DNA of 64,000 bases from Candidatus Gottesmanbacteria bacterium GW2011_GWA2_43_14 (GCA_000999095.1 LCFP01000012.1:4140-68139), one strand, 5' to 3'. Counted from the stretch's first letter, positions 5,360-62,679 are shown. A program made the numbers and translations. The notes: generated from the sequence alone by a model not told the origin.

Positions 5360-5447
5360 TTGATGGTAGATTTAATTCTAATTTTTGACAGGGCGTAAGT
5401 CAACTGTCGCAACCGAAAAATATGGGTTTATCTTTTTCAATCATAAT

Positions 5448-5503
5448 CCCGGATGTGTCTAGCTATATCACACCTGGTGTGATACGGAGGGGGGATGGGA
5501 TTT
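5448..5503 (+). repeat. Copy 1 of a roughly 50-nt intergenic repeat that contains the 17-bp perfect palindrome ATCACACCTGGTGTGAT
   Basis: cccggatgtgtctagctatatcacacctggtgtgatacgg(aggggg)gatgggatt. Matches in reverse orientation at 62594-62643, and its core matches 10078-10105. Confidence 0.85.
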
Positions 5504-6146
5504 AGTCGGCGGGGTCGACGGAGACGGTGCGGGTGAGTGTTTTCTTCTTGCCGAATTTGCTGATGGATTCGATGACTATGGTATTGACTCCCTCTTCCAG
5601 GGTAAAACTGGATGAGAATCCGCCATTGTCGTTTAAGGCAATTCTTTTGTTGTTGATCTCGACCACGGCATCGTGATCGGTCTTGCCGACAATTTCTATC
5701 CTCCCGTTTTTCAGGATTTCCCCTTCCTGCGGTTTATCGATAACCAAATTGGGCGGGCTGACATAAGCTTTCAGCTGGAATGACAGGTAGATGAAAAACA
5801 AAAGGAGGAAGGAGGCGAAAATAATAATGGTGATATTTTGCGGGGTAAAGCGGAAAACCGGTTCGTTGAGAGGTTTGCTGATACCCTCGGGCAGAATATC
5901 GTCGTCCTCATCGTATTCATACTGGCGGCGGAAAACGGCAACAATTTCTTCCGGTTTCAACTCCAGAAATTTGCTGTAGTTTCTAAGGAAGCCTTTGATA
6001 TAGGGGAGCGAGGGCAGTTTCACCCAGGCATTATCCTCCAGAGCCGCCAGGTATTTTTTCCTGATTTTGATCTGGTTTTCAACTTCATCAAGAGTAAGCC
6101 TTTTTTCCAGGCGGGCCTTTTTCAGAATTTCACCAACAGTACGCAT
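5502..6146 (-). CDS. rodZ: RodZ-like cytoskeleton/HTH membrane protein
   Basis: N-terminal XRE-type HTH (LTLDEVENQIKIRKKYLAALEDN), a central TM helix, and a C-terminal beta-rich domain. Confidence 0.6.
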   Translation of the reverse strand: MRTVGEILKKARLEKRLTLDEVENQIKIRKKYLAALEDNAWVKLPSLPYIKGFLRNYSKFLELKPEEIVAVFRRQYEYDEDDDILPEGISKPLNEPVFRFTPQNITIIIFASFLLLFFIYLSFQLKAYVSPPNLVIDKPQEGEILKNGRIEIVGKTDHDAVVEINNKRIALNDNGGFSSSFTLEEGVNTIVIESISKFGKKKTLTRTVSVDPAD

Positions 6147-6172: not shown

Positions 6173-8197
6173 TTAGGCAGCAGGCTCCGGTTCGTTTTTA
6201 CCGGCGAAAAACTCATCAGGGTTTTTAACCAGGACGTCTCTGGGTTTGGACCCTTCGGCCATGCCGACAATTCCTTCCGCTTCAAGCTGGTCCAAGACCC
6301 TGGCCGCCCGGGCGTAGCCTATTGATAATCTTCTCTGCAGTAAAGAGGCGGAAGCGCGGTCATACTGGCAGACTACCCGGACAGCCTGTTCAAATAACGC
6401 GTCATGGCCGTCTTCGCCCGTGGTGCCGGCGGGGCCACCGGCGCCTTTTTTCCAGGTGGGCGCCATGGAAGTGACTTCCTCGGTATATTCAACCGGCACA
6501 TTTTTGTTTTTCATATATTCAACCAGTTTGGCAATTTCGCCTTCGTTGACATAAGTACCCTGGATGCGGGTCGGTTTGGCCTGGTCGGGCGGGATATAAA
6601 GCATGTCACCCCGGCCTAAAAGTTTCTCGGCTCCCGGCATGTCGATAATCACCCGGGAATCGATCATCGAGGAAACGTTGAAGGCGATACGGGAAGGGAT
6701 ATTGGCTTTGATCAGGCCTGTTATAACATCAACGGAAGGCCGTTGGGTGGCCACAACCAAATGGATGCCGGTGGCCCGGGCCATCTGGGCAATACGACAG
6801 ATGGAATCCTCGACCTCGACGGGAGCGTAGGACATGAGGTCAGCCAGTTCGTCGATAAAGATAATGATATAAGGCAAGGCCTGGAAACCGGACAATTCGT
6901 TGTAGTGGTCGATATTCCTGACGCCGACTTCGGAGAAGAGCTTGTAACGGCGGTCCATCTCTGACATGGACCACTTGAGGGCGGAGAGAATTTTGTCAGG
7001 TTCGACAATGACCGGTGTCAAAAGGTGGGGAATATCCTTATATAAGGTAAGCTCGACTCTTTTGGGATCAACCAATATCAGTCTGACTTCGCTGGGGCTG
7101 TTTCGGAAGAGGATGGATGCGATCCAGGAATTGATGAGAACCGACTTGCCTGAGCCGGTCGTACCGGCTATAAGAACGTGAGGCATTTTGGCGATGTTGC
7201 CGACTACGGGACTGCCGGAAACATCCAGTCCCAGGGCAACTAGTAATTTATTCTTGCCCCGCTTCATGGAATCGCTGGACAGCATCTGTTTGACGGTGAC
7301 GAATTCGAGGGAGCGGTTTCCCAGGGCAATTTCCAGGGCATACTGGGTAACGGCCGGTCCTAAATTGACTTCGACCACCCGGGCATTGATGCCGAAACTT
7401 TCCAGAGTCTGTTCAATGGTTTGGGCGTTTTGCTTCATGTCACCCCGGTCGGCTTTCTGTCCGGGAGCAGAAGCAAGAAGCGATAAAGGCGGGTATTCCC
7501 AAACTTCTTCGGAGGCATTGAGATTGGTGACCACAGACGATCCCAAATCTCCGGGAGTTCCGGGCAGTTGGGCAGGAGCTTTTGGCGCTTTGGATTTTTC
7601 CCTGTCACTGATTTCTTTTTCAATCGGCGTATTTGTCAGTCTCGGGACGGGCGGCGGACGGATGGGCAGTTTATCGGCAAAAAGGTCTTTTTTCTTGGTT
7701 TTGACCGGGAGCTTTTCAAACAGTTCTAAAACGGATTCGGCGACTTTGACGATTTCCGCCAGAGAAATGTCAAAAAGCACCATCAGCCCCACAAAAAGCA
7801 TCAGGGAAATCATGACAAAAGAGCCGATTTCCGAGATGCGGTCGCTCGCAATCAGCCAGATAAAAGTACCCACCACTCCGCTTTGGGTCAAACCGCTCAA
7901 ACAGAAAAAAACCAAAAGAAGGCCAAGAAGGATATTGGGCCGGGTCAGGGAAATTTTGAGTTTCAGAAAGGACAAAGAAAAAGTGAGACCAAGTATGGGC
8001 AGGAGATATTTCATGACGCCGAAATAGTAGTCGGCCGTAAATTGCAGACTGTCCAAAACAGAGCCCTGCTGAAAAAAGCTGAGGGTCAGTAAAATCGATC
8101 CGATTATAAGAAACAGGGAGAGCAGGGAAAAGATAGTGCCTTTTCTCGGTTTGAGGATTGATTTCCTTCTTCTTCTGTAGTGTCTGCGTTTAGCCAT
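6173..8197 (-). CDS. ftsK: DNA translocase FtsK/SpoIIIE
   Basis: N-terminal TM helices, Walker A GTTGSGKS, and a C-terminal gamma winged-helix (LFEQAVRVV...QRRLSIGYARAARVLDQLE). Confidence 0.9.
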   Translation of the reverse strand: MAKRRHYRRRRKSILKPRKGTIFSLLSLFLIIGSILLTLSFFQQGSVLDSLQFTADYYFGVMKYLLPILGLTFSLSFLKLKISLTRPNILLGLLLVFFCLSGLTQSGVVGTFIWLIASDRISEIGSFVMISLMLFVGLMVLFDISLAEIVKVAESVLELFEKLPVKTKKKDLFADKLPIRPPPVPRLTNTPIEKEISDREKSKAPKAPAQLPGTPGDLGSSVVTNLNASEEVWEYPPLSLLASAPGQKADRGDMKQNAQTIEQTLESFGINARVVEVNLGPAVTQYALEIALGNRSLEFVTVKQMLSSDSMKRGKNKLLVALGLDVSGSPVVGNIAKMPHVLIAGTTGSGKSVLINSWIASILFRNSPSEVRLILVDPKRVELTLYKDIPHLLTPVIVEPDKILSALKWSMSEMDRRYKLFSEVGVRNIDHYNELSGFQALPYIIIFIDELADLMSYAPVEVEDSICRIAQMARATGIHLVVATQRPSVDVITGLIKANIPSRIAFNVSSMIDSRVIIDMPGAEKLLGRGDMLYIPPDQAKPTRIQGTYVNEGEIAKLVEYMKNKNVPVEYTEEVTSMAPTWKKGAGGPAGTTGEDGHDALFEQAVRVVCQYDRASASLLQRRLSIGYARAARVLDQLEAEGIVGMAEGSKPRDVLVKNPDEFFAGKNEPEPAA

Positions 8198-9270: not shown

Positions 9271-10065
9271 ATGGAAGAAATAAACTGGTCAGGTGTCAAA
9301 GGCATAATCGTCAGGCATATGTTTGCCTGGAGGCGGGATCTCGACCGTCTGGTCGATGCTTTCTGGTGGGCGACTGTTGACCTGGTTTTCTGGGGATTGA
9401 CCTCAAGGTATGTCGAACAGTACAACCTGGGTTTTGACATAGTCGCAGTTTTCATCGGCGGTATTATTTTCTGGTCAGTCATCATCGGCAGCCAGCGTGA
9501 TATCAATATGCCGCTTCTCGATGAAGCCTGGAACCGTAACCTGATAAACCTTTTTACCACGCCTATCAGTCTGGTGGAGATGGTCATCGCAACCGTCCTT
9601 TTGGGTTTACTCAAGCTGACGATGACGATGACTTTTCTGTCGCTTTTGGCTTTTTTGCTCTACAAATACAATATTTTGAGTAACGGTTTTTATATCCTGC
9701 CTTTTTTTGCCAACCTGATTCTGATGGGCTGGACTGTAGGCTTTATCATCGACGGACTGATCCTGCGGTACGGTTATAAAATCCAGGCATTTGCCTGGGC
9801 GCTTATTTTTGTGATTTATCCGTTTGCAGCCGTGATTTATCCGGTAGGGGTTTTACCGAAATGGGCTCAGGTCATCTCACGACTGGTCCCTGCCAGTTAT
9901 GTTTTCGAAAACATGAGGAGGATTATCAGTCATGAAACCGTCAATTTTAACGAACTGGTAATCAGTTTCCTTCTAAACGTCCTTTATCTGACACTGGCGA
10001 TTATCTTTTTGAAAAGAATGTTCCGCCAGGCACTGAAACTGGGCAAACTGATAAAACTGAACTGA
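9271..10065 (+). CDS. ABC-2 family transporter permease
   Basis: Six predicted TM segments. Starts 7 nt after the ATPase gene. Confidence 0.7.
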   Translation: MEEINWSGVKGIIVRHMFAWRRDLDRLVDAFWWATVDLVFWGLTSRYVEQYNLGFDIVAVFIGGIIFWSVIIGSQRDINMPLLDEAWNRNLINLFTTPISLVEMVIATVLLGLLKLTMTMTFLSLLAFLLYKYNILSNGFYILPFFANLILMGWTVGFIIDGLILRYGYKIQAFAWALIFVIYPFAAVIYPVGVLPKWAQVISRLVPASYVFENMRRIISHETVNFNELVISFLLNVLYLTLAIIFLKRMFRQALKLGKLIKLN

Positions 10066-10077
10066 AGGATACCGGAA

Positions 10078-10105
10078 GGTGTCTAGCTATATCACACCTG
10101 GTGTG
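10078..10105 (+). repeat. Core copy 2 of the palindromic repeat (ggtgtctagctatatcacacctggtgtg)
   Basis: Exact match to the core of copies 1 and 3. Lies 13 nt after the permease stop and about 40 nt before the thyA start. Confidence 0.8.
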
Positions 10106-10141
10106 CGATTGATATCGACAAGGGAAATATTCTTTTATAGA

Positions 10142-11152
10142 ATGGAAGCTGCGATGGCTGACAAAAATCATCCGGAATACCAGTATTTAAATCTGCTTAA
10201 GGATATTCTGGACAACGGCGTCTGGAAAGTATCCCACTCAACAGGTGTTAAGCTGAAAAGCGTCTTCGGCCGGCAGATCAGATTTGATTTGTCCAAGGGC
10301 TTTCCCCTTTTGACCACCAAAAAAGTTTTCAGCCGCGGCATCATCCATGAACTGATCTGGTTTCTCTCAGGCTCCTCCAATATCAAATATCTGGTTGAAA
10401 ATAACGTCCATATCTGGGACGAATGGGCGTACAAAAAATACACCTGGGCGATGGAAGACTCGGCCAAAGGCCGATCGTCCTCTGGACGAAAAAAACAGAT
10501 GCCGATTCCTTATGAAGAATTTATTAAAAAAATAGCCGAAGACAAAAAATTCCTGGAAAAATGGGGGGAACTGGGACCTGTCTACGGAGTTCAATGGCGG
10601 CGCTGGCCTGCCTATGACGAAATGAATAAGGGGAGGATCAAAGAAATTGACCAGCTGGGATGGGCAATTGAAAAAATAAAAAAATATCCCCAGAAAAAGC
10701 ACTATATCATTTCGGCCTGGAATGCAGGTTCAATTTATGAAATGTCAGGCAGCCATTCGGCCTCGATGGTGATTGCGCCCTGCCATACGATGTATCATAT
10801 TAATATTACAGGGGATAAGTTGTCGCTTCTTTTATACCAGAGAAGTGCCGATTCATTCCTGGGCGTGCCCTTTAATATAGCAAGCTATGCCCTGTTGACG
10901 CTGATGCTGGCCCAGGTGACAGGCTATAAGCCAGGTGATTTCGTCCATACTTTCGGCGACATCCATATTTATGAAAACCATTTCGACCAGGTAAAGGAAC
11001 AGCTGAAAAGGACTCCGAAGCCGTTGCCTGTCATGAAGTTAAATCCGGAGATCAAAAACATAGATGATTTTAAATTTACTGATTTTGAATTATCGGGTTA
11101 CGATCCGCACCCGCCGATAAAAGGCGAGATCACGGTCGTAGGAGGATTTTAA
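10142..11152 (+). CDS. thyA: Thymidylate synthase (ThyA). Start uncertain (10142 or 10154).
   Basis: FGRQIRFDL, the PCH catalytic Cys motif (MVIAPCHTMYHINI), and SADSFLGVPFNIASYALLT. Confidence 0.85.
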   Translation: MEAAMADKNHPEYQYLNLLKDILDNGVWKVSHSTGVKLKSVFGRQIRFDLSKGFPLLTTKKVFSRGIIHELIWFLSGSSNIKYLVENNVHIWDEWAYKKYTWAMEDSAKGRSSSGRKKQMPIPYEEFIKKIAEDKKFLEKWGELGPVYGVQWRRWPAYDEMNKGRIKEIDQLGWAIEKIKKYPQKKHYIISAWNAGSIYEMSGSHSASMVIAPCHTMYHINITGDKLSLLLYQRSADSFLGVPFNIASYALLTLMLAQVTGYKPGDFVHTFGDIHIYENHFDQVKEQLKRTPKPLPVMKLNPEIKNIDDFKFTDFELSGYDPHPPIKGEITVVGGF

Positions 11153-12927: not shown

Positions 12928-12957
12928 AGAAACCCCCGAATACTCGGGGGTTTTTTA
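12928..12957. terminator. Bidirectional intrinsic terminator
   Basis: An A-run, then the CCCCCG-aatact-CGGGGG hairpin, then a T-run. It lies between convergent genes (12382..12786 + and rnj -). Confidence 0.6.
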
Positions 12958-39318: not shown

Positions 39319-39723
39319 ATGGAAGCCACATCTTATACCAGGTATATCAGAATATCGCCGAAAAAGATCAAGTCGTTGGCCAAACTGACGGTCGGTTTGC
39401 CTGTTTCTGCAGCCCTTGACAGACTATCTCTGACTGCCGGCAAACCGGGACAGCTTTTAATAAAAGCTATTGCTTCAGCCAAAGCAAATGCCGTTAACAA
39501 TCTAAAACTCTCCGAAAAAAACCTGGTTATCAGGGAAGTATCAATAGAAAAAGGTCCTTTTTTCAAAAGATTCCAGCCGGTTGCCCGGGGAATGGCCCAT
39601 TCATATAAAAAAAGAACAAGCCATTTGAAAATCAGGGTAGCAGAGAAAGAAGTGAAGGAAGAAGTTAAAAAAGTTTCGGCCAAAGGCCGATTGTCCATTG
39701 GACAAAAAAAGAGGTCCGCCTAA
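39319..39723 (+). CDS. rplV: Ribosomal protein L22 (C-terminal tail ...VSAKGRLSIGQKKRSA)
   Basis: L22 family. Confidence 0.9.
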   Translation: MEATSYTRYIRISPKKIKSLAKLTVGLPVSAALDRLSLTAGKPGQLLIKAIASAKANAVNNLKLSEKNLVIREVSIEKGPFFKRFQPVARGMAHSYKKRTSHLKIRVAEKEVKEEVKKVSAKGRLSIGQKKRSA

Positions 39724-41615: not shown

Positions 41616-41954
41616 ATGATGAAATTTAAAAAAGGCGATGAAGTACTGATTACTGCCGGCAAGGATAAAGGCAAGAAAGGCAAAATTGAAAGAATTTATG
41701 CTTCTTCATCCACAGCCCTTATACCGGGCCTGAATCTTTTTAAAAGGCATCTTAAAAAAAAGGATGAAAAAAATCCGGGAGGCATCATCGAGTTTCCCAG
41801 AGCTCTTTCTTTCGGCAAATTGGCACTGATCTGTTCAAAATGCGGCAAACCCACCAGAGCCGGTTTTAAGATCGATAAAAAAGTATCGGACAAAGGCCGA
41901 TTGTCCTTTGGGCAAAAAAAAAGAATCTGCCGTAAATGCGGCGGACTCTTATAA
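41616..41954 (+). CDS. rplX: Ribosomal protein L24 with a C-terminal Cys4 (zinc-ribbon-like) extension
   Basis: MMKFKKGDEV KOW motif. The tail reads CSKCGKPTRAGFKIDKKVSDKGRLSFGQKKRICRKCGG. Confidence 0.85.
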   Translation: MMKFKKGDEVLITAGKDKGKKGKIERIYASSSTALIPGLNLFKRHLKKKDEKNPGGIIEFPRALSFGKLALICSKCGKPTRAGFKIDKKVSDKGRLSFGQKKRICRKCGGLL

Positions 41955-57302: not shown

Positions 57303-57370
57303 TGGTTAATATTAGTACATATTGTACATTTTGTCAATCTCAGACGGATCTTATTTAACGCTTTTCTGTG

Positions 57371-57443
57371 TCGGGGCGACACGATTTGAACGTGCGACCA
57401 CACGACCCCCAGCCGTGTGCTCTACCAACTGAGCTACGCCCCG
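57371..57443 (-). tRNA. tRNA-Pro (anticodon GGG)
   Basis: Manual fold: acceptor CGGGGCG/CGCCCCG, U8 A9, D-arm GCUC-AGUUGGUA-GAGC, anticodon stem CACGG/UCGUG with loop CU-GGG-GG, T-arm GCACG-UUCAAAU-CGUGU, discriminator A. CCA is not encoded. Confidence 0.8.
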
Positions 57444-57703
57444 ATATTTTTACTCTCTATTAACTTCAAAATTAATTCTTTTATTTGTTTTCCAAAACCT
57501 GTTTTATAAAATTTTTCTCGTAACTTTGCATCCTTTTCGCATTGGTATTTTTCGAAATATTTTAATAAGAAAGGGCCGTTATATCGTGACCATTGATTTG
57601 ACCCGTTATTATGTTCATTGACTCGAATTTTCGGAATTTTTGTTGTTGATCCGACATATACCTTTCCATTCTTTTTACTTTTCATAAAGTAAAGGTAAGG
57701 CAT
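57434..57703 (-). CDS. GIY-YIG nuclease family protein (small, YhbQ/UPF0213-like)
   Basis: YLYFMKSKKNGKVYVGSTTKIPKIRVNEHN, i.e. GIY...YIG...R..E.H(N). Its last four codons are encoded by the tRNA-Pro 5' end. Confidence 0.7.
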   Translation of the reverse strand: MPYLYFMKSKKNGKVYVGSTTKIPKIRVNEHNNGSNQWSRYNGPFLLKYFEKYQCEKDAKLREKFYKTGFGKQIKELILKLIESKNIGA

Positions 57704-57714
57704 TTTTTAATATT

Positions 57715-57770
57715 TGCTCTACCTCGGCCAAAGGCCGATCAGCCTTTGGCTGAAACTGAGCTACGCCCCG
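57715..57770 (-). other. Partial duplicate of tRNA-Pro nt 1-25, with a 30-nt palindromic hairpin inserted in the D-loop
   Basis: The reverse complement reads CGGGGCGTAGCTCAGTT[tcagccaaaggctgatcggcctttggccgag]GTAGAGCA, matching the tRNA 5' half. The GIY-YIG start codon follows 10 nt later. Confidence 0.7.
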
Positions 57771-57863
57771 TTCCGATTAATCCCTTGTATTTTACCATAC
57801 GTTATGCCAGAATGGTTTTGATTTTCTGCCCCCTATAAACTTTTTAACGGAAGGAGACTCTCA

Positions 57864-61079: not shown

Positions 61080-61243
61080 AGCTTTCTGACGCGATAAATC
61101 ATCTCCGTGTTCCAAATTGGGGCTTGACAACAACATAAAAAAATTCTACATTTGATTTTGGATTTTCACAGCAATCTGAAAAATTATTCGCCTGCCCCTG
61201 CGACTTTGCCGGTCGTGGAAAAAAAGGAGGTGAATATTGCTAA

Positions 61244-61516
61244 ATGACAAAAGCTGATTTGGTTGAGTTCGTTGCCAAGAAAGCCAATCTGACTGCTAAA
61301 GCCGCCAAAGATGCCGTCAATTCCGTCTTCAGTGCCGTCACCGATACTCTCAAGAAAGGTGACAAAGTTGTTGTGACAGGGTTCGGTACTTTTATGGTCC
61401 GCTCCAGAGCCGCCAGAAAAGGTAGAAATCCGCAGACAGGAGCACCCATTAATATTCCAGCCAGAAAAACTCCTGGTTTTACTGCCGGAAAAGCGCTTAA
61501 AAAGTCGATCAGATAA
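61244..61516 (+). CDS. hup: DNA-binding protein HU
   Basis: MTKADLVEFVA...GFGTF.VR.R.AR.GRNP.TG. Confidence 0.9.
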   Translation: MTKADLVEFVAKKANLTAKAAKDAVNSVFSAVTDTLKKGDKVVVTGFGTFMVRSRAARKGRNPQTGAPINIPARKTPGFTAGKALKKSIR

Positions 61517-61536
61517 AACTGGTCACCAAGAATTTT

Positions 61537-61631: not shown

Positions 61632-62624
61632 ATGAAGACCATTTATGTCTCCCATTTGAAAAAATATTACCGTATTTTCAAAAGGCGTGAGGGGCTTTTA
61701 TCGGCTTTCAAATCATTGGTTTCCAGGCCGCAGCATACAGTCAAAGCGGTCGATGATATTTCTTTCTCAATCGGTGAAGGTGAGCTGGTCGGTTTTATCG
61801 GGCCCAACGGTGCCGGAAAAACAACCACGCTCAAATGCCTCTCCGGCCTTTTATATCCGTCGGCAGGTGTAGTTGAAGTTCTGGGATTCAAGCCATTCAA
61901 AAGAAATAATAATTATTTAAAACAGATCAGCCTGGTCATGGGGCAGAAAAACCAGCTCTGGTGGGATTTGCCGGCCATGGAATCCCTGCGTCTGAACAAG
62001 GAAATTTACGATCTCACCGAAAGGCAGTTCAGGGAGAATCTGGAGGAACTGTCTCAGCTTCTGGAAGTCGGTGATATGGCAAAGGTGCCGGTCAGGCAGC
62101 TCTCTTTGGGCCAAAGAATGAAAATGGAACTGATTGCCGCCCTCATTCACCATCCCAAAGTCCTCTTTTTGGACGAGCCGACCATAGGATTGGATATCGT
62201 CATGCAGAAAAAAATGAGGGATTTTATTGCCGGTTACAACCGCAACCACAAGGCGACCATTATTCTGACCAGCCATTATATGGCCGATGTCAAAGAGCTG
62301 GCCAAACGGGTCATCATCATCGACCGGGGCAGACTTCTCTATGACGGCAACCTGACCGATTTGATAAAAAAATATGCCGACCACAAAGTCATCACCGCCC
62401 ATTTTGAAAAAGAGGTCAAGAGCGAGGATTTCAGGAAACTGGGCAAACTCAAGTCAGTCAACGGTAAATCAGTTAGTTTTACGGTTTCAAGGAACCGGGC
62501 CAAGGCGGTTGCGGTGGATCTCTTAAAAAATTACCGCATCCGCGATTTTGAGATCGAGGAACCGGAACTGGAAGACGTCATTTCCATTATCTTCCAATCC
62601 CATCCCGTATCACACCAGGTGTGA
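61632..62624 (+). CDS. ABC transporter ATP-binding protein
   Basis: Walker A GPNGAGKTT, signature LSLGQRMK, Walker B LFLDEPTIGLD. The stop codon lies inside repeat copy 3. Confidence 0.85.
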   Translation: MKTIYVSHLKKYYRIFKRREGLLSAFKSLVSRPQHTVKAVDDISFSIGEGELVGFIGPNGAGKTTTLKCLSGLLYPSAGVVEVLGFKPFKRNNNYLKQISLVMGQKNQLWWDLPAMESLRLNKEIYDLTERQFRENLEELSQLLEVGDMAKVPVRQLSLGQRMKMELIAALIHHPKVLFLDEPTIGLDIVMQKKMRDFIAGYNRNHKATIILTSHYMADVKELAKRVIIIDRGRLLYDGNLTDLIKKYADHKVITAHFEKEVKSEDFRKLGKLKSVNGKSVSFTVSRNRAKAVAVDLLKNYRIRDFEIEEPELEDVISIIFQSHPVSHQV

Positions 62625-62643
62625 TATAGCTAGACACATCCGG
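62594..62643 (-). repeat. Copy 3 (inverted orientation) of the roughly 50-nt palindromic repeat
   Basis: Its reverse complement, cccggatgtgtctagctatatcacacctggtgtgatacgggatgggattgg, matches copy 1 apart from a 6-nt indel. Confidence 0.85.
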
Positions 62644-62679
62644 GTTGAGAGATGGGAGAGGCAGATATATGAGGTAATC

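What the first reader, a model, noticed from the sequence alone, without database searches (positions are those of the whole stretch)
5448..5503. A roughly 50-nt intergenic repeat with a perfect 17-bp palindrome, present three times in the window
The sequence cccggatgtgtctagctatatcacacctggtgtgatacgg...gatgggatt occurs at 5448-5503 (+) and 62594-62643 (inverted). Its 28-nt core occurs at 10078-10105. All three copies are intergenic. They lie between rodZ and the DUF948 gene, 13 nt after the ABC-2 permease stop and upstream of thyA, and between an ABC ATPase and its permease. The core contains ATCACACC-T-GGTGTGAT, a perfect 8-1-8 palindrome, plus the palindromic TAGCTA and GGTGT/ACACC half-sites. 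This looks like a dimeric regulator operator or a REP/MITE-like mobile repeat. Two of the three copies sit next to ABC-2 transporter operons.
Basis: seen in the sequence. Interest (0 to 1): 0.6.

Follow-up and report, generated by a model that had tools for sequence, protein, structure and literature searches.

The report
Small palindromic mobile repeat in CPR bacteria
The three copies belong to a real, roughly 41-base hairpin-containing repeat family that has been inserted at the ends of unrelated genes in a few groundwater Microgenomates (CPR) bacteria; it looks like a small selfish mobile repeat, not a regulator's binding site.

Summary
An exact 27-mer occurs three times in the window, against 0 expected by chance. 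Copies 1 and 3 share at least 39 identical bases.

The window comes from Candidatus Gottesmanbacteria GW2011_GWA2_43_14. About 117 kb of that MAG could be sampled. It holds six canonical copies, one diverged in-frame copy inside miaA, and one decayed relic. Near-identical copies occur in Gottesmanbacteria RIFCSPLOWO2_01_FULL_42_22 (one, plus one degenerate intragenic copy) and in a Crystal Geyser Shapirobacteria genome (two).

Every copy lies at a different, non-orthologous site next to unrelated housekeeping genes. Three of the nine lie between convergent genes. Relatives with about 75-80% identical proteins lack the element at the two sites that could be compared: the ABC ATPase/permease junction and the rodZ 3' end.

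Eight of nine copies point the same way as the gene upstream and sit 0-70 nt after its stop codon. One copy supplies the stop codon.

No Rfam family matches, there is no U-tract terminator, no target-site duplication and no convincing terminal inverted repeat. No transposase was found, but almost none of the genome could be searched for one.

Best reading: a new family of REP/MITE/RPE-like miniature mobile palindromic repeats. The operator and ABC-2 regulon reading is not supported. Interest is moderate.

The parts
5445..5485 (-). Copy A, the 41-nt core element. Read on the - strand it is GTATCACACC-A-GGTGTGATATAGCTAGACACATCCGGGATT. It starts 16 nt after the rodZ-like stop (5502-5504) and has the same orientation as rodZ.
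   Evidence: nhmmer with a hand-aligned 10-copy profile scores 51 bits, E 3.6e-14. About 43 nt are absent from the orthologous spacer of the 75% relative L024.
5467..5483 (.). Perfect 8-1-8 palindrome ATCACACC-T-GGTGTGAT in copy A. It extends to a 9-10 bp stem with G-U closure.
   Evidence: It is predicted as a hairpin in RNA.
5486..5503 (-). It is probably native sequence, not element. It is homologous to the last codons of the longer RodZ of the relative L024. Eleven bases also match the flank of copy B.
   Evidence: Alignment. A-B flank match of 11/11, p=0.005 before correction for 45 pairs.
10070..10108 (-). Copy C, a subfamily with right end CACCTTCCGG and left arm CG instead of AT. It starts 4-13 nt after the ABC-2 permease stop (10063-10065) and 36 nt upstream of the thyA ATG. 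It is the only copy oriented against its flanking genes.
   Evidence: 42 bits. The strain variant L003 carries a 16-nt partial tandem duplication of AATC[G/A]CACACC[A/G]GGTG here.
62607..62647 (+). Copy B, the 41-nt core element in the same orientation as the ABC operon.
   Evidence: 50 bits.
62603..62673 (+). A 71-nt block absent from the 79-80% relatives L020 and L023. In those relatives the ATPase stop and the permease start overlap (ATGA). The block contains copy B plus 26 nt that carry a new Shine-Dalgarno sequence (GAGGT) for the permease.
   Evidence: Alignment A1. Gene calls. C-termini of 40 homologues.
62622..62624 (+). TGA stop codon of the ABC ATPase, located inside the palindrome. 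The last 7 residues (HPVSHQV) are encoded by the inserted block.
5375..5403 (-). Context, not part of the element. This is a promoter-like site, TTGACT-17-TAGAAT, for the downstream 92-aa gene. It is conserved in relatives that lack the element.
10115..10143 (+). Context, not part of the element. This is a promoter-like site, TCGACA-17-TAGAAT, just downstream of copy C and in front of thyA.

Best explanation
The three copies belong to a family of miniature, non-coding, hairpin-containing dispersed repeats. The robust core is about 41 nt: (G/A)TAT-CACACC-N1or3-GGTGTG-ATATAGCTAGA-CACA(T)CC-NGG-AT. The family has spread by insertion within and between a few Microgenomates (CPR) genomes. It is a REP/MITE/RPE-like selfish element.

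Shown:
- It is multi-copy: 6 canonical copies, one diverged intragenic copy and one relic in about 117 kb of Gottesmanbacteria GWA2_43_14.
- It is present or absent at orthologous sites in relatives.
- It occupies non-orthologous sites in three genomes.
- Copies within one genome resemble each other more than copies from another lineage do.
- It survives only where insertion is tolerated: short spacers just after stop codons, the last codons of a gene (where it supplies a stop), or in frame in a variable protein loop with its TAG changed to CAG.

Inferred:
- It is mobilised in trans by an enzyme encoded elsewhere.
- That enzyme most plausibly recognises the hairpin in single-stranded DNA, as HUH/Y1 transposases of the RAYT or IS200/IS605 type do. 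This guess rests on the absence of target-site duplications, the lack of convincing terminal inverted repeats, and the fact that the hairpin is the most constant structural feature.
- The a-a'-a layout (CACACC / GGTGTG / CACA(T)CC) and the partial tandem duplications of the left arm are by-products of hairpin-mediated slippage or template switching.
- The bias towards the orientation of the upstream gene may reflect selection on the transcript, or a coupling of insertion to transcription.
For: The repeat is real: 3 exact 27-mers against 0 expected.

More copies were found by exact-pattern scans. One is in the GTDB representative of Gottesmanbacteria RIFCSPLOWO2_01_FULL_42_22. Five distinct metagenome sites were found. 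They were assigned to GWA2_43_14 and to Shapirobacteria CG08_land_8_20_14_0_20_39_18. Walking the second contig gave a sixth canonical copy in GWA2_43_14.

Empty sites: the ATPase/permease junction lacks 71 nt in two 79-80% relatives. The rodZ 3' spacer lacks about 43 nt in a 75% relative. Neither site shows a target-site duplication.

About 51 kb of those relatives contains no canonical copy. It contains only a weak, diverged homologue after permease-2 (nhmmer E 0.24 and 1.3), which is decayed further in the window genome. This points to old as well as young members.

Lineage-specific subfamilies exist. Both Shapirobacteria copies have a 3-nt CCC loop and an -AGGA- right end. The Gottesmanbacteria copies have a 1-nt loop and ATCCGGG.

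The miaA copy has a 10-1-10 perfect palindrome with a compensatory A-T to C-G change. It keeps ATCCGGGATT and reads TAG as CAG. It lies in a length-variable loop, and the relatives' miaA lacks it (at 30 bits, 98). A second degenerate in-frame copy lies in a nucleotidyltransferase-like ORF of 42_22.

The flanking genes are unrelated housekeeping genes.

In 8 of 8 testable copies, one of the element's stop codons (TAG or TGA) is in phase with the upstream ORF. The one open frame is never in phase. This fits insertion into or at gene ends followed by selection.

The literature describes the same behaviour for known miniature elements. QMITE2 lies mainly in 3' UTRs, Chunjie is tolerated inside an operon, and RPEs insert in frame in ORFs (PMC10969869). 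REPINs and RAYTs are described in PMC3116915 and PMC3337134.
Against: No transposase or other mobilising gene was identified. I could not search the genomes for one.

There is no target-site duplication. Similarity beyond the 41-nt core is not statistically robust after multiple testing. Outer inverted repeats (AATCCC/GGGATT in A, TCATCCCG/CGGGATGA in F) are short and inconsistent.

Copy number is low outside GWA2_43_14: one exact copy in the whole 42_22 assembly and two in the Shapirobacteria. The exact-pattern scans found the element in no other species among 185,579.

Identity of 27-38 nt between Gottesmanbacteria and Shapirobacteria from different aquifers is easier to explain by strong functional constraint or recent horizontal transfer than by ordinary selfish decay. 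Part of that conservation is forced by my exact search patterns.

The 8/9 orientation bias with respect to the upstream gene is not predicted by a purely selfish model. It also does not follow replication direction, because GC skew keeps one sign across the window while copies point both ways.
Confidence: 0.55

Rival explanations
1. It is a functional cis-acting RNA module of gene ends and intercistronic spacers. In the transcript, the central GGUGUG can pair either with the upstream CACACC (hairpin 1) or with the downstream CACA(U)CC (hairpin 2). The module would protect the upstream mRNA's 3' end, act as a processing site, or tune translation of the next cistron. Its right end, GGGA/AGGA, sits where a Shine-Dalgarno sequence would be in several copies. 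On this view the element is kept by selection and spreads by recombination or by being mobile.
For: Eight of nine canonical copies have the orientation of the upstream gene, and they start 0-70 nt after its stop. Both alternative hairpins are predicted, and which one is the minimum-energy fold varies between copies. The two-box layout and both pairings are retained in the diverged copy after permease-2 in the relatives. There, box 2 (GGGAA) precedes the coaBC ATG by 3-4 nt. Near-perfect conservation of the core between Gottesmanbacteria and Shapirobacteria. In copy H, AAGGA followed by ATG lies directly after the element.
Against: Folding energies are not unusual: z-scores run from -0.1 to -1.3 for most copies, and only B and M reach -2.4 to -3.0. 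There is no U-tract, and canonical GC-hairpin plus T-run terminators exist elsewhere in the same genome. No Rfam family matches. Close relatives manage without the element at the same junctions. Copy C is inverted. Two derivatives are translated as protein. The only covariation evidence is a single compensatory pair. No expression data were available.
Confidence: 0.27
2. It is the operator of a dimeric helix-turn-helix regulator that controls a regulon including the ABC-2 transporter operons.
For: There is a perfect 8-1-8 palindrome, plus a second small palindrome (CATCC-G-GGATG) in some copies. Two of the three window copies adjoin ABC-2 genes. Copy C lies 8 nt upstream of a -35-like box for thyA.
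Against: Three of nine copies lie between convergent genes, where no promoter can be downstream. Copy B lies inside an operon and overlaps a coding end. Copy A is about 107 nt upstream of the next transcription start, and that promoter is conserved in relatives without the element. The flanking genes have no common function. The palindrome arms vary from 6 to 10 bp and the loop from 1 to 3 nt, while the non-palindromic tail is invariant. That is the opposite of what a dimer site predicts. Relatives lack the site at the same operons.
Confidence: 0.04
3. It is a recombination site or a footprint: an att-like core, an excision scar or a solo end left by an integrative element, phage or insertion sequence that visited these gene ends.
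For: The copies are at gene 3' ends. Direct-repeat pairs flank 4-4.6 kb segments (A and C in the window, F and G on the other contig). There are repeated CACACC-N-GG boxes of the kind recombinases and transposases bind. The same genomes carry other signs of integration, such as a duplicated tRNA-Pro 5' fragment at 57754-57785.
Against: The segments between the direct pairs hold only core genes (rodZ, ftsK, ABC; thymidine phosphorylase, yceG, DUF2130, yjbQ). The same gene order exists in a relative without the element. No integrase or transposase lies nearby. Exact-pattern scans found no pair of inverted copies bounding a candidate parent element. Viral contigs gave only chance matches.
Confidence: 0.07
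4. It is a chance similarity or an assembly or scaffolding artefact.
For: Some short contigs end inside or next to the element.
Against: Zero matches are expected by chance. The element is spanned in the middle of long contigs from at least four independent assemblies and samples. Contig breaks occur only in k=31 assemblies, which is what a true repeat of at least 39 nt produces.
Confidence: 0.01

Closest known systems
REP sequences / REPINs mobilised by RAYT (TnpA_REP) transposases in Proteobacteria (PMC3116915, PMC3337134)
   Same: A short (20-40 nt) palindromic, non-coding dispersed repeat, mostly just downstream of genes. The hairpin is the constant feature. A 5' GTAT precedes the stem in 5 copies, comparable to the GTAG head of REPs. 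There are no target-site duplications. Families are lineage-specific, and copy number differs strongly between genomes.
   Different: No doublets in inverted orientation (REPIN) were seen, and all copies are singletons kilobases apart. A 20-nt non-palindromic invariant tail follows the hairpin. Known copy number is 1-6 per sampled genome region rather than tens to hundreds. No RAYT was identified, and this could not be tested. The host is a CPR lineage, for which my two literature searches found no REP or MITE report.
Bacterial MITEs, e.g. Chunjie (Geobacter), QMITE2 (Coxiella), Correia/NEMIS (Neisseria) (PMC10969869)
   Same: A non-autonomous, non-coding insertion with presence/absence polymorphism. 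It is tolerated within an operon (copy B, like Chunjie). It has a preference for 3' UTRs (like QMITE2). Truncated and variant copies exist.
   Different: At about 41 nt it is below the usual MITE size range of 50-500 bp. There are no clear terminal inverted repeats, no target-site duplication and no identifiable parent insertion sequence.
Rickettsia palindromic elements (RPE) (PMC10969869)
   Same: Palindromic selfish DNA in a reduced genome that can sit in frame inside protein-coding genes. The miaA copy and a nucleotidyltransferase-like ORF copy are translated, and copy B encodes the last 7 residues of an ABC ATPase.
   Different: RPEs are 100-150 bp and encode a conserved peptide. Here most copies are extragenic, the element carries stop codons in two of three frames, and the sequence and host are unrelated.
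Mycobacterial interspersed repetitive units (MIRU) (from my own knowledge, not checked here)
   Same: 40-100 bp units located in intercistronic spacers of operons and oriented with the genes. Their stop and start codons interlock with those of the flanking genes.
   Different: MIRUs occur as tandem arrays of variable number. This element is a singleton with a strong hairpin, and no mini-ORF is conserved across copies.

Membership tests
REP / REPIN-RAYT | Short imperfect palindrome (about 20-40 nt) able to form a hairpin | tested here: met
   Stem of 6-10 bp with a 1-3 nt loop in all copies. One compensatory A-T to C-G change in the miaA copy.
REP / REPIN-RAYT | Conserved 5' tetranucleotide head (GTAG-like) next to the stem | tested here: inconclusive
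   GTAT in A, B, G, I and M. The others have ATAT (F), CTTA (D), ATCG/ATCA (C, E) and TTTG (H).
REP / REPIN-RAYT | Two REPs in inverted orientation forming a REPIN doublet | tested here: not met
   All copies are singletons. The nearest neighbours are 4-4.6 kb apart and in direct orientation.
REP / REPIN-RAYT | A RAYT (Y1 HUH transposase) gene in the genome, typically flanked by REPs | not testable with these tools
   Only about 117 kb of the MAG could be fetched. Precomputed Pfam calls on those loci show no Y1_Tnp or other transposase.
REP / REPIN-RAYT | Tens to hundreds of copies per genome | tested here: inconclusive
   Six canonical copies in about 117 kb of GWA2_43_14 (about 1 per 20 kb). 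Only 1 exact copy in the whole 42_22 assembly and 2 in the Shapirobacteria.
MITE | Terminal inverted repeats | tested here: inconclusive
   Short outer complementarity in some copies (A: AATCCC/GGGATT; F: TCATCCCG/CGGGATGA; B: UCCCAUC/GAUGGGA). It is not at a constant position. Flank similarity is not significant after multiple testing.
MITE | Target-site duplication flanking the insertion | tested here: not met
   No duplication at the two sites where an empty orthologous site could be aligned.
MITE | Presence/absence polymorphism at orthologous sites, and no coding capacity | tested here: met
   Absent in L020, L023 and L024. It is 41 nt long with stop codons in two frames.
MITE | A parent insertion sequence sharing the ends | tested here: not met
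   Exact-pattern scans of the genome, metagenome and viral collections returned only solo copies. Diverged parents would have been missed.
Rickettsia palindromic elements | In-frame insertion into ORFs, encoding a conserved peptide of about 35-50 aa | tested here: not met
   Two in-frame derivatives exist. However, the element is only about 14 codons long, most copies are extragenic, and canonical copies carry stop codons.
Transcription-factor operator | A palindrome positioned relative to the promoters of a functionally coherent gene set | tested here: not met
   Three of nine copies lie between convergent genes. The flanking functions are unrelated, and there is no constant distance to promoter-like sites.
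Intrinsic terminator | GC-rich hairpin followed by a U-tract | tested here: not met
   No terminator-like site at any of the three copies. A canonical terminator exists elsewhere, at 12932-12956.
Any Rfam RNA family | Covariance-model match | tested here: not met
   Only a tRNA passes the gathering threshold in the window. In E-value mode there is nothing at copy A and only noise (E >= 0.5, microRNA models) at copy B.
CRISPR repeat / integron attC | Regular arrays with spacers (CRISPR), or R''/R' boxes GTTRRRY at cassette ends (attC) | tested here: not met
   The copies are kilobases apart with core genes between them. The sequences show no GTTRRRY boxes.

The most novel reading that the evidence does not exclude
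The element is not merely junk. It may be a transcription-oriented mobile 'gene-end cassette' shared by Microgenomates. On insertion it would deliver a stop codon in two frames, a two-state RNA hairpin switch and, in some copies, a ribosome-binding site. It would therefore be kept nearly invariant across order-level lineages.

A corollary follows. Transcripts carrying sense copies (rodZ, ABC ATPase) and the antisense copy (permease-thyA spacer) would be complementary over 27-35 nt. That could link those operons through RNA-RNA pairing.
Probability: 0.15. Interest if true: 0.65.

Novelty: new member of a known kind. Interest (0 to 1): 0.4.

Why it matters
CPR/Patescibacteria genomes are tiny, gene-dense and thought to be poor in repeats. 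Two full-text searches found no paper that describes REP- or MITE-type elements in them.

A defined 41-nt family with empty sites, subfamilies and in-frame derivatives gives three things. It is a marker for strain typing. It explains why short-k assemblies of these organisms break at specific points. It also opens a way to find whatever enzyme moves DNA in these uncultivated lineages.

The element also shows how selfish DNA reshapes gene ends in a minimal genome. It gave an ABC ATPase a new C-terminus and stop codon, uncoupled an overlapping stop/start junction, and added residues to MiaA.

If the conservation across Gottesmanbacteria and Shapirobacteria reflects function, this would be a new cis-acting gene-end signal in a large part of bacterial diversity.

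Tried and rejected
1. Protein-word census. I built a profile from the element's four readable frames and searched it against the 5.8-billion-protein database, hoping to find ORFs that run through copies. No candidate shared three words, so the search was wasted.

2. Viral vector. Three pattern scans of IMG/VR gave nothing or two chance 17-mer matches that lack the rest of the element.

3. Rfam, in gathering and permissive modes, gave nothing.

4. Longer element with defined ends. By eye, D, F and I share TATCTT and TCACCC-like strings upstream, and A, B, F and M share AAT.CATCCC. Shuffle tests give p = 0.005-0.03 before correction for 45 pairs, and MAFFT does not recover the alignment. I claim only the 41-nt core.

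5. Island bounded by direct repeats (A..C at 4.6 kb, F..G at 4 kb). Rejected, because the content is core genes and the gene order is the same in a relative without the element.

6. Orientation set by replication. Rejected for the window, because GC skew stays positive throughout while copies point both ways.

7. Promoter carried by the element (TGaTATAGC as an extended -10). Rejected, because three copies face gene ends and one is antisense.

8. DnaA box, parS, dif, attC, SECIS, DGR IMH and CRISPR were compared from memory with the sequence. None fits.

9. Orthologues of the genes flanking D-H were not present in any locus I held, so no empty-site test was possible for those copies.

10. Copy C could be compared only with a 64% relative, which is too diverged to be informative.

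Full report
**1. The observation**

The 27-mer GTGTCTAGCTATATCACACCTGGTGTG is exact at 5455-5481 (+), 10079-10105 (+) and 62611-62637 (-), with none expected in 100 shuffles. The repeat finder reports 51-nt inverted arms at 5448-5498 / 62594-62644 (90% complementary) and a 34-nt direct pair at 5448-5481 / 10072-10105 (91%).

The 8-1-8 palindrome is perfect in copies 1 and 3. In copy 2 only CACACC-T-GGTGTG survives. Copies 1 and 3 share at least 39 identical bases and differ by a 6-nt indel in the C-rich flank.

One correction is needed. Copy 3 is not purely intergenic. The ABC ATPase ORF 61632..62624 ends at a TGA inside the palindrome.

**2. Where the window comes from**

Exact-protein look-ups place the window on a Rifle aquifer groundwater contig (PRJNA268031). 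NCBI names for the same proteins identify it as Candidatus Gottesmanbacteria bacterium GW2011_GWA2_43_14, contig UV73_C0012 of 140,268 bp. This is a member of the Microgenomates within the Candidate Phyla Radiation.

The element is spanned in the middle of contigs from several independent assemblies. Only k=31 Logan contigs stop inside it (L008 ends in it, L031 starts in it). That is the signature of a true repeat longer than k, not of an artefact.

**3. More copies**

I name the copies as follows: A = 5445-5485 (-), C = 10070-10108 (-), B = 62607-62647 (+).

- An exact scan of 185,579 species-representative genomes found one further copy, D. It lies in Gottesmanbacteria RIFCSPLOWO2_01_FULL_42_22, 8 nt after the stop of a GT4 glycosyltransferase and between convergent genes.
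- A scan of JGI metagenomes found five distinct sites: D again, plus E, F, G and H.
- Exact-protein look-ups assign F and G to a second contig (UV73_C0003) of the same MAG as the window. They assign E and H to Candidatus Shapirobacteria CG08_land_8_20_14_0_20_39_18, from Crystal Geyser.
- Walking that second contig gave a sixth canonical copy, I. It starts 12 nt after the stop of a GH39 gene and is convergent with murJ.

A profile built from my hand alignment of ten copies finds nothing else in the window or in about 300 kb of fetched loci, with these exceptions:

- M, a diverged full-length copy inside miaA, about 3.8 kb beyond the window's end. Its sequence is CCGTATCACCCCCGGGGTGATACAGGATTCACAATCCGGGATT (30 bits).
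- A weak, diverged homologue directly after the second ABC-2 permease gene in the two relatives L020 and L023 (E 0.24 and 1.3). It is decayed further at the same place in the window genome.
- A degenerate two-box remnant in 42_22 (L016 3736-3771). It lies in frame inside a nucleotidyltransferase-like ORF.

About 117 kb of GWA2_43_14 was sampled. It holds six canonical copies, roughly one per 20 kb. The whole 42_22 assembly has one exact copy.

**4. Anatomy**

The robust unit is about 41 nt: (G/A)TAT-CACACC-N-GGTGTG-ATATAGCTAGA-CACA(T)CC-NGG-AT.

Hairpin 1 is (AT)CACACC / GGTGTG(AT). Its stem is 6-10 bp. The Gottesmanbacteria copies have a 1-nt centre. Both Shapirobacteria copies have a 3-nt CCC loop, ATCACACC-CCC-GGTGTGAT. 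The miaA copy has a perfect 10-1-10 palindrome with a compensatory A-T to C-G change.

The central GGTGTG can also pair with the downstream CACA(T)CC (hairpin 2). RNA folding picks hairpin 1 in some copies and hairpin 2 in others. The energies are mostly unremarkable, with z-scores of -0.1 to -1.3 and about -3 only for B.

The layout is therefore a - a' - a, with the box CACACC-N-GG present twice in direct orientation. Extra partial copies of the left box occur in tandem in the strain variant L003 of copy C (a 16-nt duplication), in H and in the 42_22 remnant.

Similarity outside the 41 nt is suggestive by eye but does not survive shuffle tests with multiple-testing correction. I do not claim defined termini or terminal inverted repeats.

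**5. It is an insertion**

In two relatives whose ATPase is 79-80% identical (L020, L023), the ATPase stop and the permease start overlap (ATGA). The window has 71 extra bases there (62603-62673). They contain copy B, a new C-terminus (HPVSHQV instead of QQP), a new stop codon and a new Shine-Dalgarno sequence for the permease.

In a relative whose FtsK is 75% identical (L024), the rodZ-to-next-gene spacer lacks about 43 nt that correspond to copy A. The downstream promoter, TTGACT-17-TAGAAT, is conserved.

At that site the relative's RodZ reads on through sequence that lies after the stop in the window (..EISPSP* against ..D*IPSPL..). The element therefore landed at or next to the ancestral stop codon, and the present TAA corresponds to a GAA codon in the relative.

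Neither site shows a target-site duplication.

In miaA, the element-like 17 codons replace a shorter, hypervariable loop of the relatives' proteins. The canonical TAG reads CAG there.

**6. Position and orientation**

All nine canonical copies are at different, non-orthologous sites beside unrelated housekeeping genes. Three of them (D, E, I) lie between convergent genes.

Eight of nine have the orientation of the gene upstream (one-sided binomial p about 0.02). They start 0-70 nt after its stop codon, with a median near 14 nt. Copy C is inverted.

In all eight co-oriented copies, one of the element's stop codons is in phase with the upstream ORF. It is the TAG in A, D, F, G and H, and the TGA in B, E and I. 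The single open frame is never in phase: 0 of 8, (2/3)^8 = 0.04. This test was chosen after seeing the data, and E has other in-phase stops in between.

I read this as the trace of insertion into or at gene ends, followed by selection against long read-through.

GC skew keeps one sign across the window while copies point both ways, so orientation does not follow replication.

**7. What it is not**

- Not an operator for an ABC-2 regulon. Only 2 of 9 copies adjoin ABC-2 genes. Convergent-gene and intra-operon positions have no promoter to control. There is no constant distance to promoter-like sites. The palindrome varies while the asymmetric tail is invariant. Relatives lack the site at the same operons.
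- Not an intrinsic terminator. There is no U-tract, while a canonical terminator exists at 12932.
- Not a known RNA family.
- Not CRISPR or attC.
- Not found in viral contigs.
- Not the border of an island. The segments between direct pairs are core genes, in the same order in a relative without the element.

**8. Best explanation and its limits**

The data fit a miniature, non-autonomous mobile repeat of the REP/MITE/RPE kind. The supporting points are:

- it is multi-copy;
- it is present or absent at orthologous sites;
- its subfamilies are genome-specific;
- it has both young members (at least 39 identical bases) and old ones (M and the relic);
- it is tolerated at gene ends, within an operon and in frame within proteins.

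The MITE review PMC10969869 describes this behaviour for QMITE2, Chunjie and RPEs. PMC3116915 and PMC3337134 describe REPINs and RAYTs.

How it moves is inferred, not shown. There are no target-site duplications and no clear terminal inverted repeats, and the hairpin is the constant feature. That points to a hairpin-recognising single-strand enzyme of the HUH/Y1 type. No such gene was seen in the loci I hold, and the genomes could not be searched.

Three facts keep a functional reading alive, at about 0.27:

- the strong orientation bias with respect to transcription;
- near-invariance of the core between Gottesmanbacteria and Shapirobacteria from different aquifers (partly forced by my exact search patterns);
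- retention of the two-box, two-hairpin layout in the old copy of the relatives, where box 2 sits at the Shine-Dalgarno position of coaBC.

The two readings are not exclusive.

**9. Novelty and score**

The kind of element is familiar. The family, its host lineage and its very small size appear undescribed. Two full-text searches for REP or MITE reports in CPR/Patescibacteria found nothing relevant.

I rate it a new member of a known kind, with interest 0.4.

The most novel reading not excluded is a transcription-oriented mobile gene-end cassette with a real RNA function. I give that a probability of about 0.15.

Noticed in passing
window 10450-10497, 39666-39713, 41876-41923, 57714-57761: A second repeat family of 33-48 nt, 82-90% identical between copies. 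It is a double hairpin, CGGCCAAAGGCCG plus TTGTCCNTTGGACAA, followed by an A-run. The copy at 10450 lies in frame inside thyA (..MEDSAKGRSSSGRKKQ..). There it corresponds to an 8-residue insertion relative to the ThyA of a 64% relative. Two other copies encode ..KKVS[A/D]KGRLS[I/F]GQKK.. near protein ends. This looks like another small palindromic element that can sit inside coding sequence.
   Followed up: partly
window 57690-57790 (- strand): The first 17 nt of the tRNA-Pro gene (57370-57443) are duplicated at 57754-57785. They are followed directly by a copy of the double-hairpin repeat and then GTAGAGCA. There is no anticodon arm, and ARAGORN calls no tRNA. This may be a tRNA 5' fragment left by an integration or rearrangement.
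   Followed up: partly
L003 4095-4162 (strain variant of window 10066-10141): There is a population-level polymorphism in copy C. A 16-nt partial tandem duplication, AATCGCACACCAGGTG / AATCACACACCGGGTG, is present in one assembly (ERZ27254745) and absent in the window.
   Followed up: yes
L006 15952-16110 (about 2.3 kb beyond the window end): The gene caller starts miaA at an internal ATG, giving 299 aa. The reading frame continues upstream through an intact P-loop (..[37 protein letters not shown]..). The real start is therefore further upstream, possibly a non-ATG codon, and the called gene is truncated.
   Followed up: partly
window 12932-12956: A canonical intrinsic terminator is present: ACCCCCGA-ATAC-TCGGGGGT followed by TTTTT. 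Ordinary GC-hairpin plus U-tract terminators therefore exist in this genome.
   Followed up: no
L012 6300-6318 and 7714-7730; L020 7990-8008 and 8088-8104; L023 13921-13939: Other short GC-rich palindromes recur within related genomes. GCAGGGGTCACCCCTGC occurs twice in the Shapirobacteria locus. CCCTCCGA(A/T)TCGGAGGG occurs twice in L020 and once in L023 at the arm length scanned. They may be terminators or further small repeat families.
   Followed up: no
window about 61240-61520 and L006 14100-14665, L030 11241-11997: Several toxin-antitoxin pairs (ParE/YafQ-RelB, PhdYeFM-PIN, and PIN with a small partner) lie within 20 kb of copy B. They are typical accessory content and are not linked to the element.
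   Followed up: no
window 6173-8197 (-): The N-terminal part of FtsK differs between assemblies of the same population: 674 aa in NCBI and the window, and 668 aa at 94% identity in the ENA contig. The relatives have 705-717 aa. The region is a variable, low-complexity linker.
   Followed up: no
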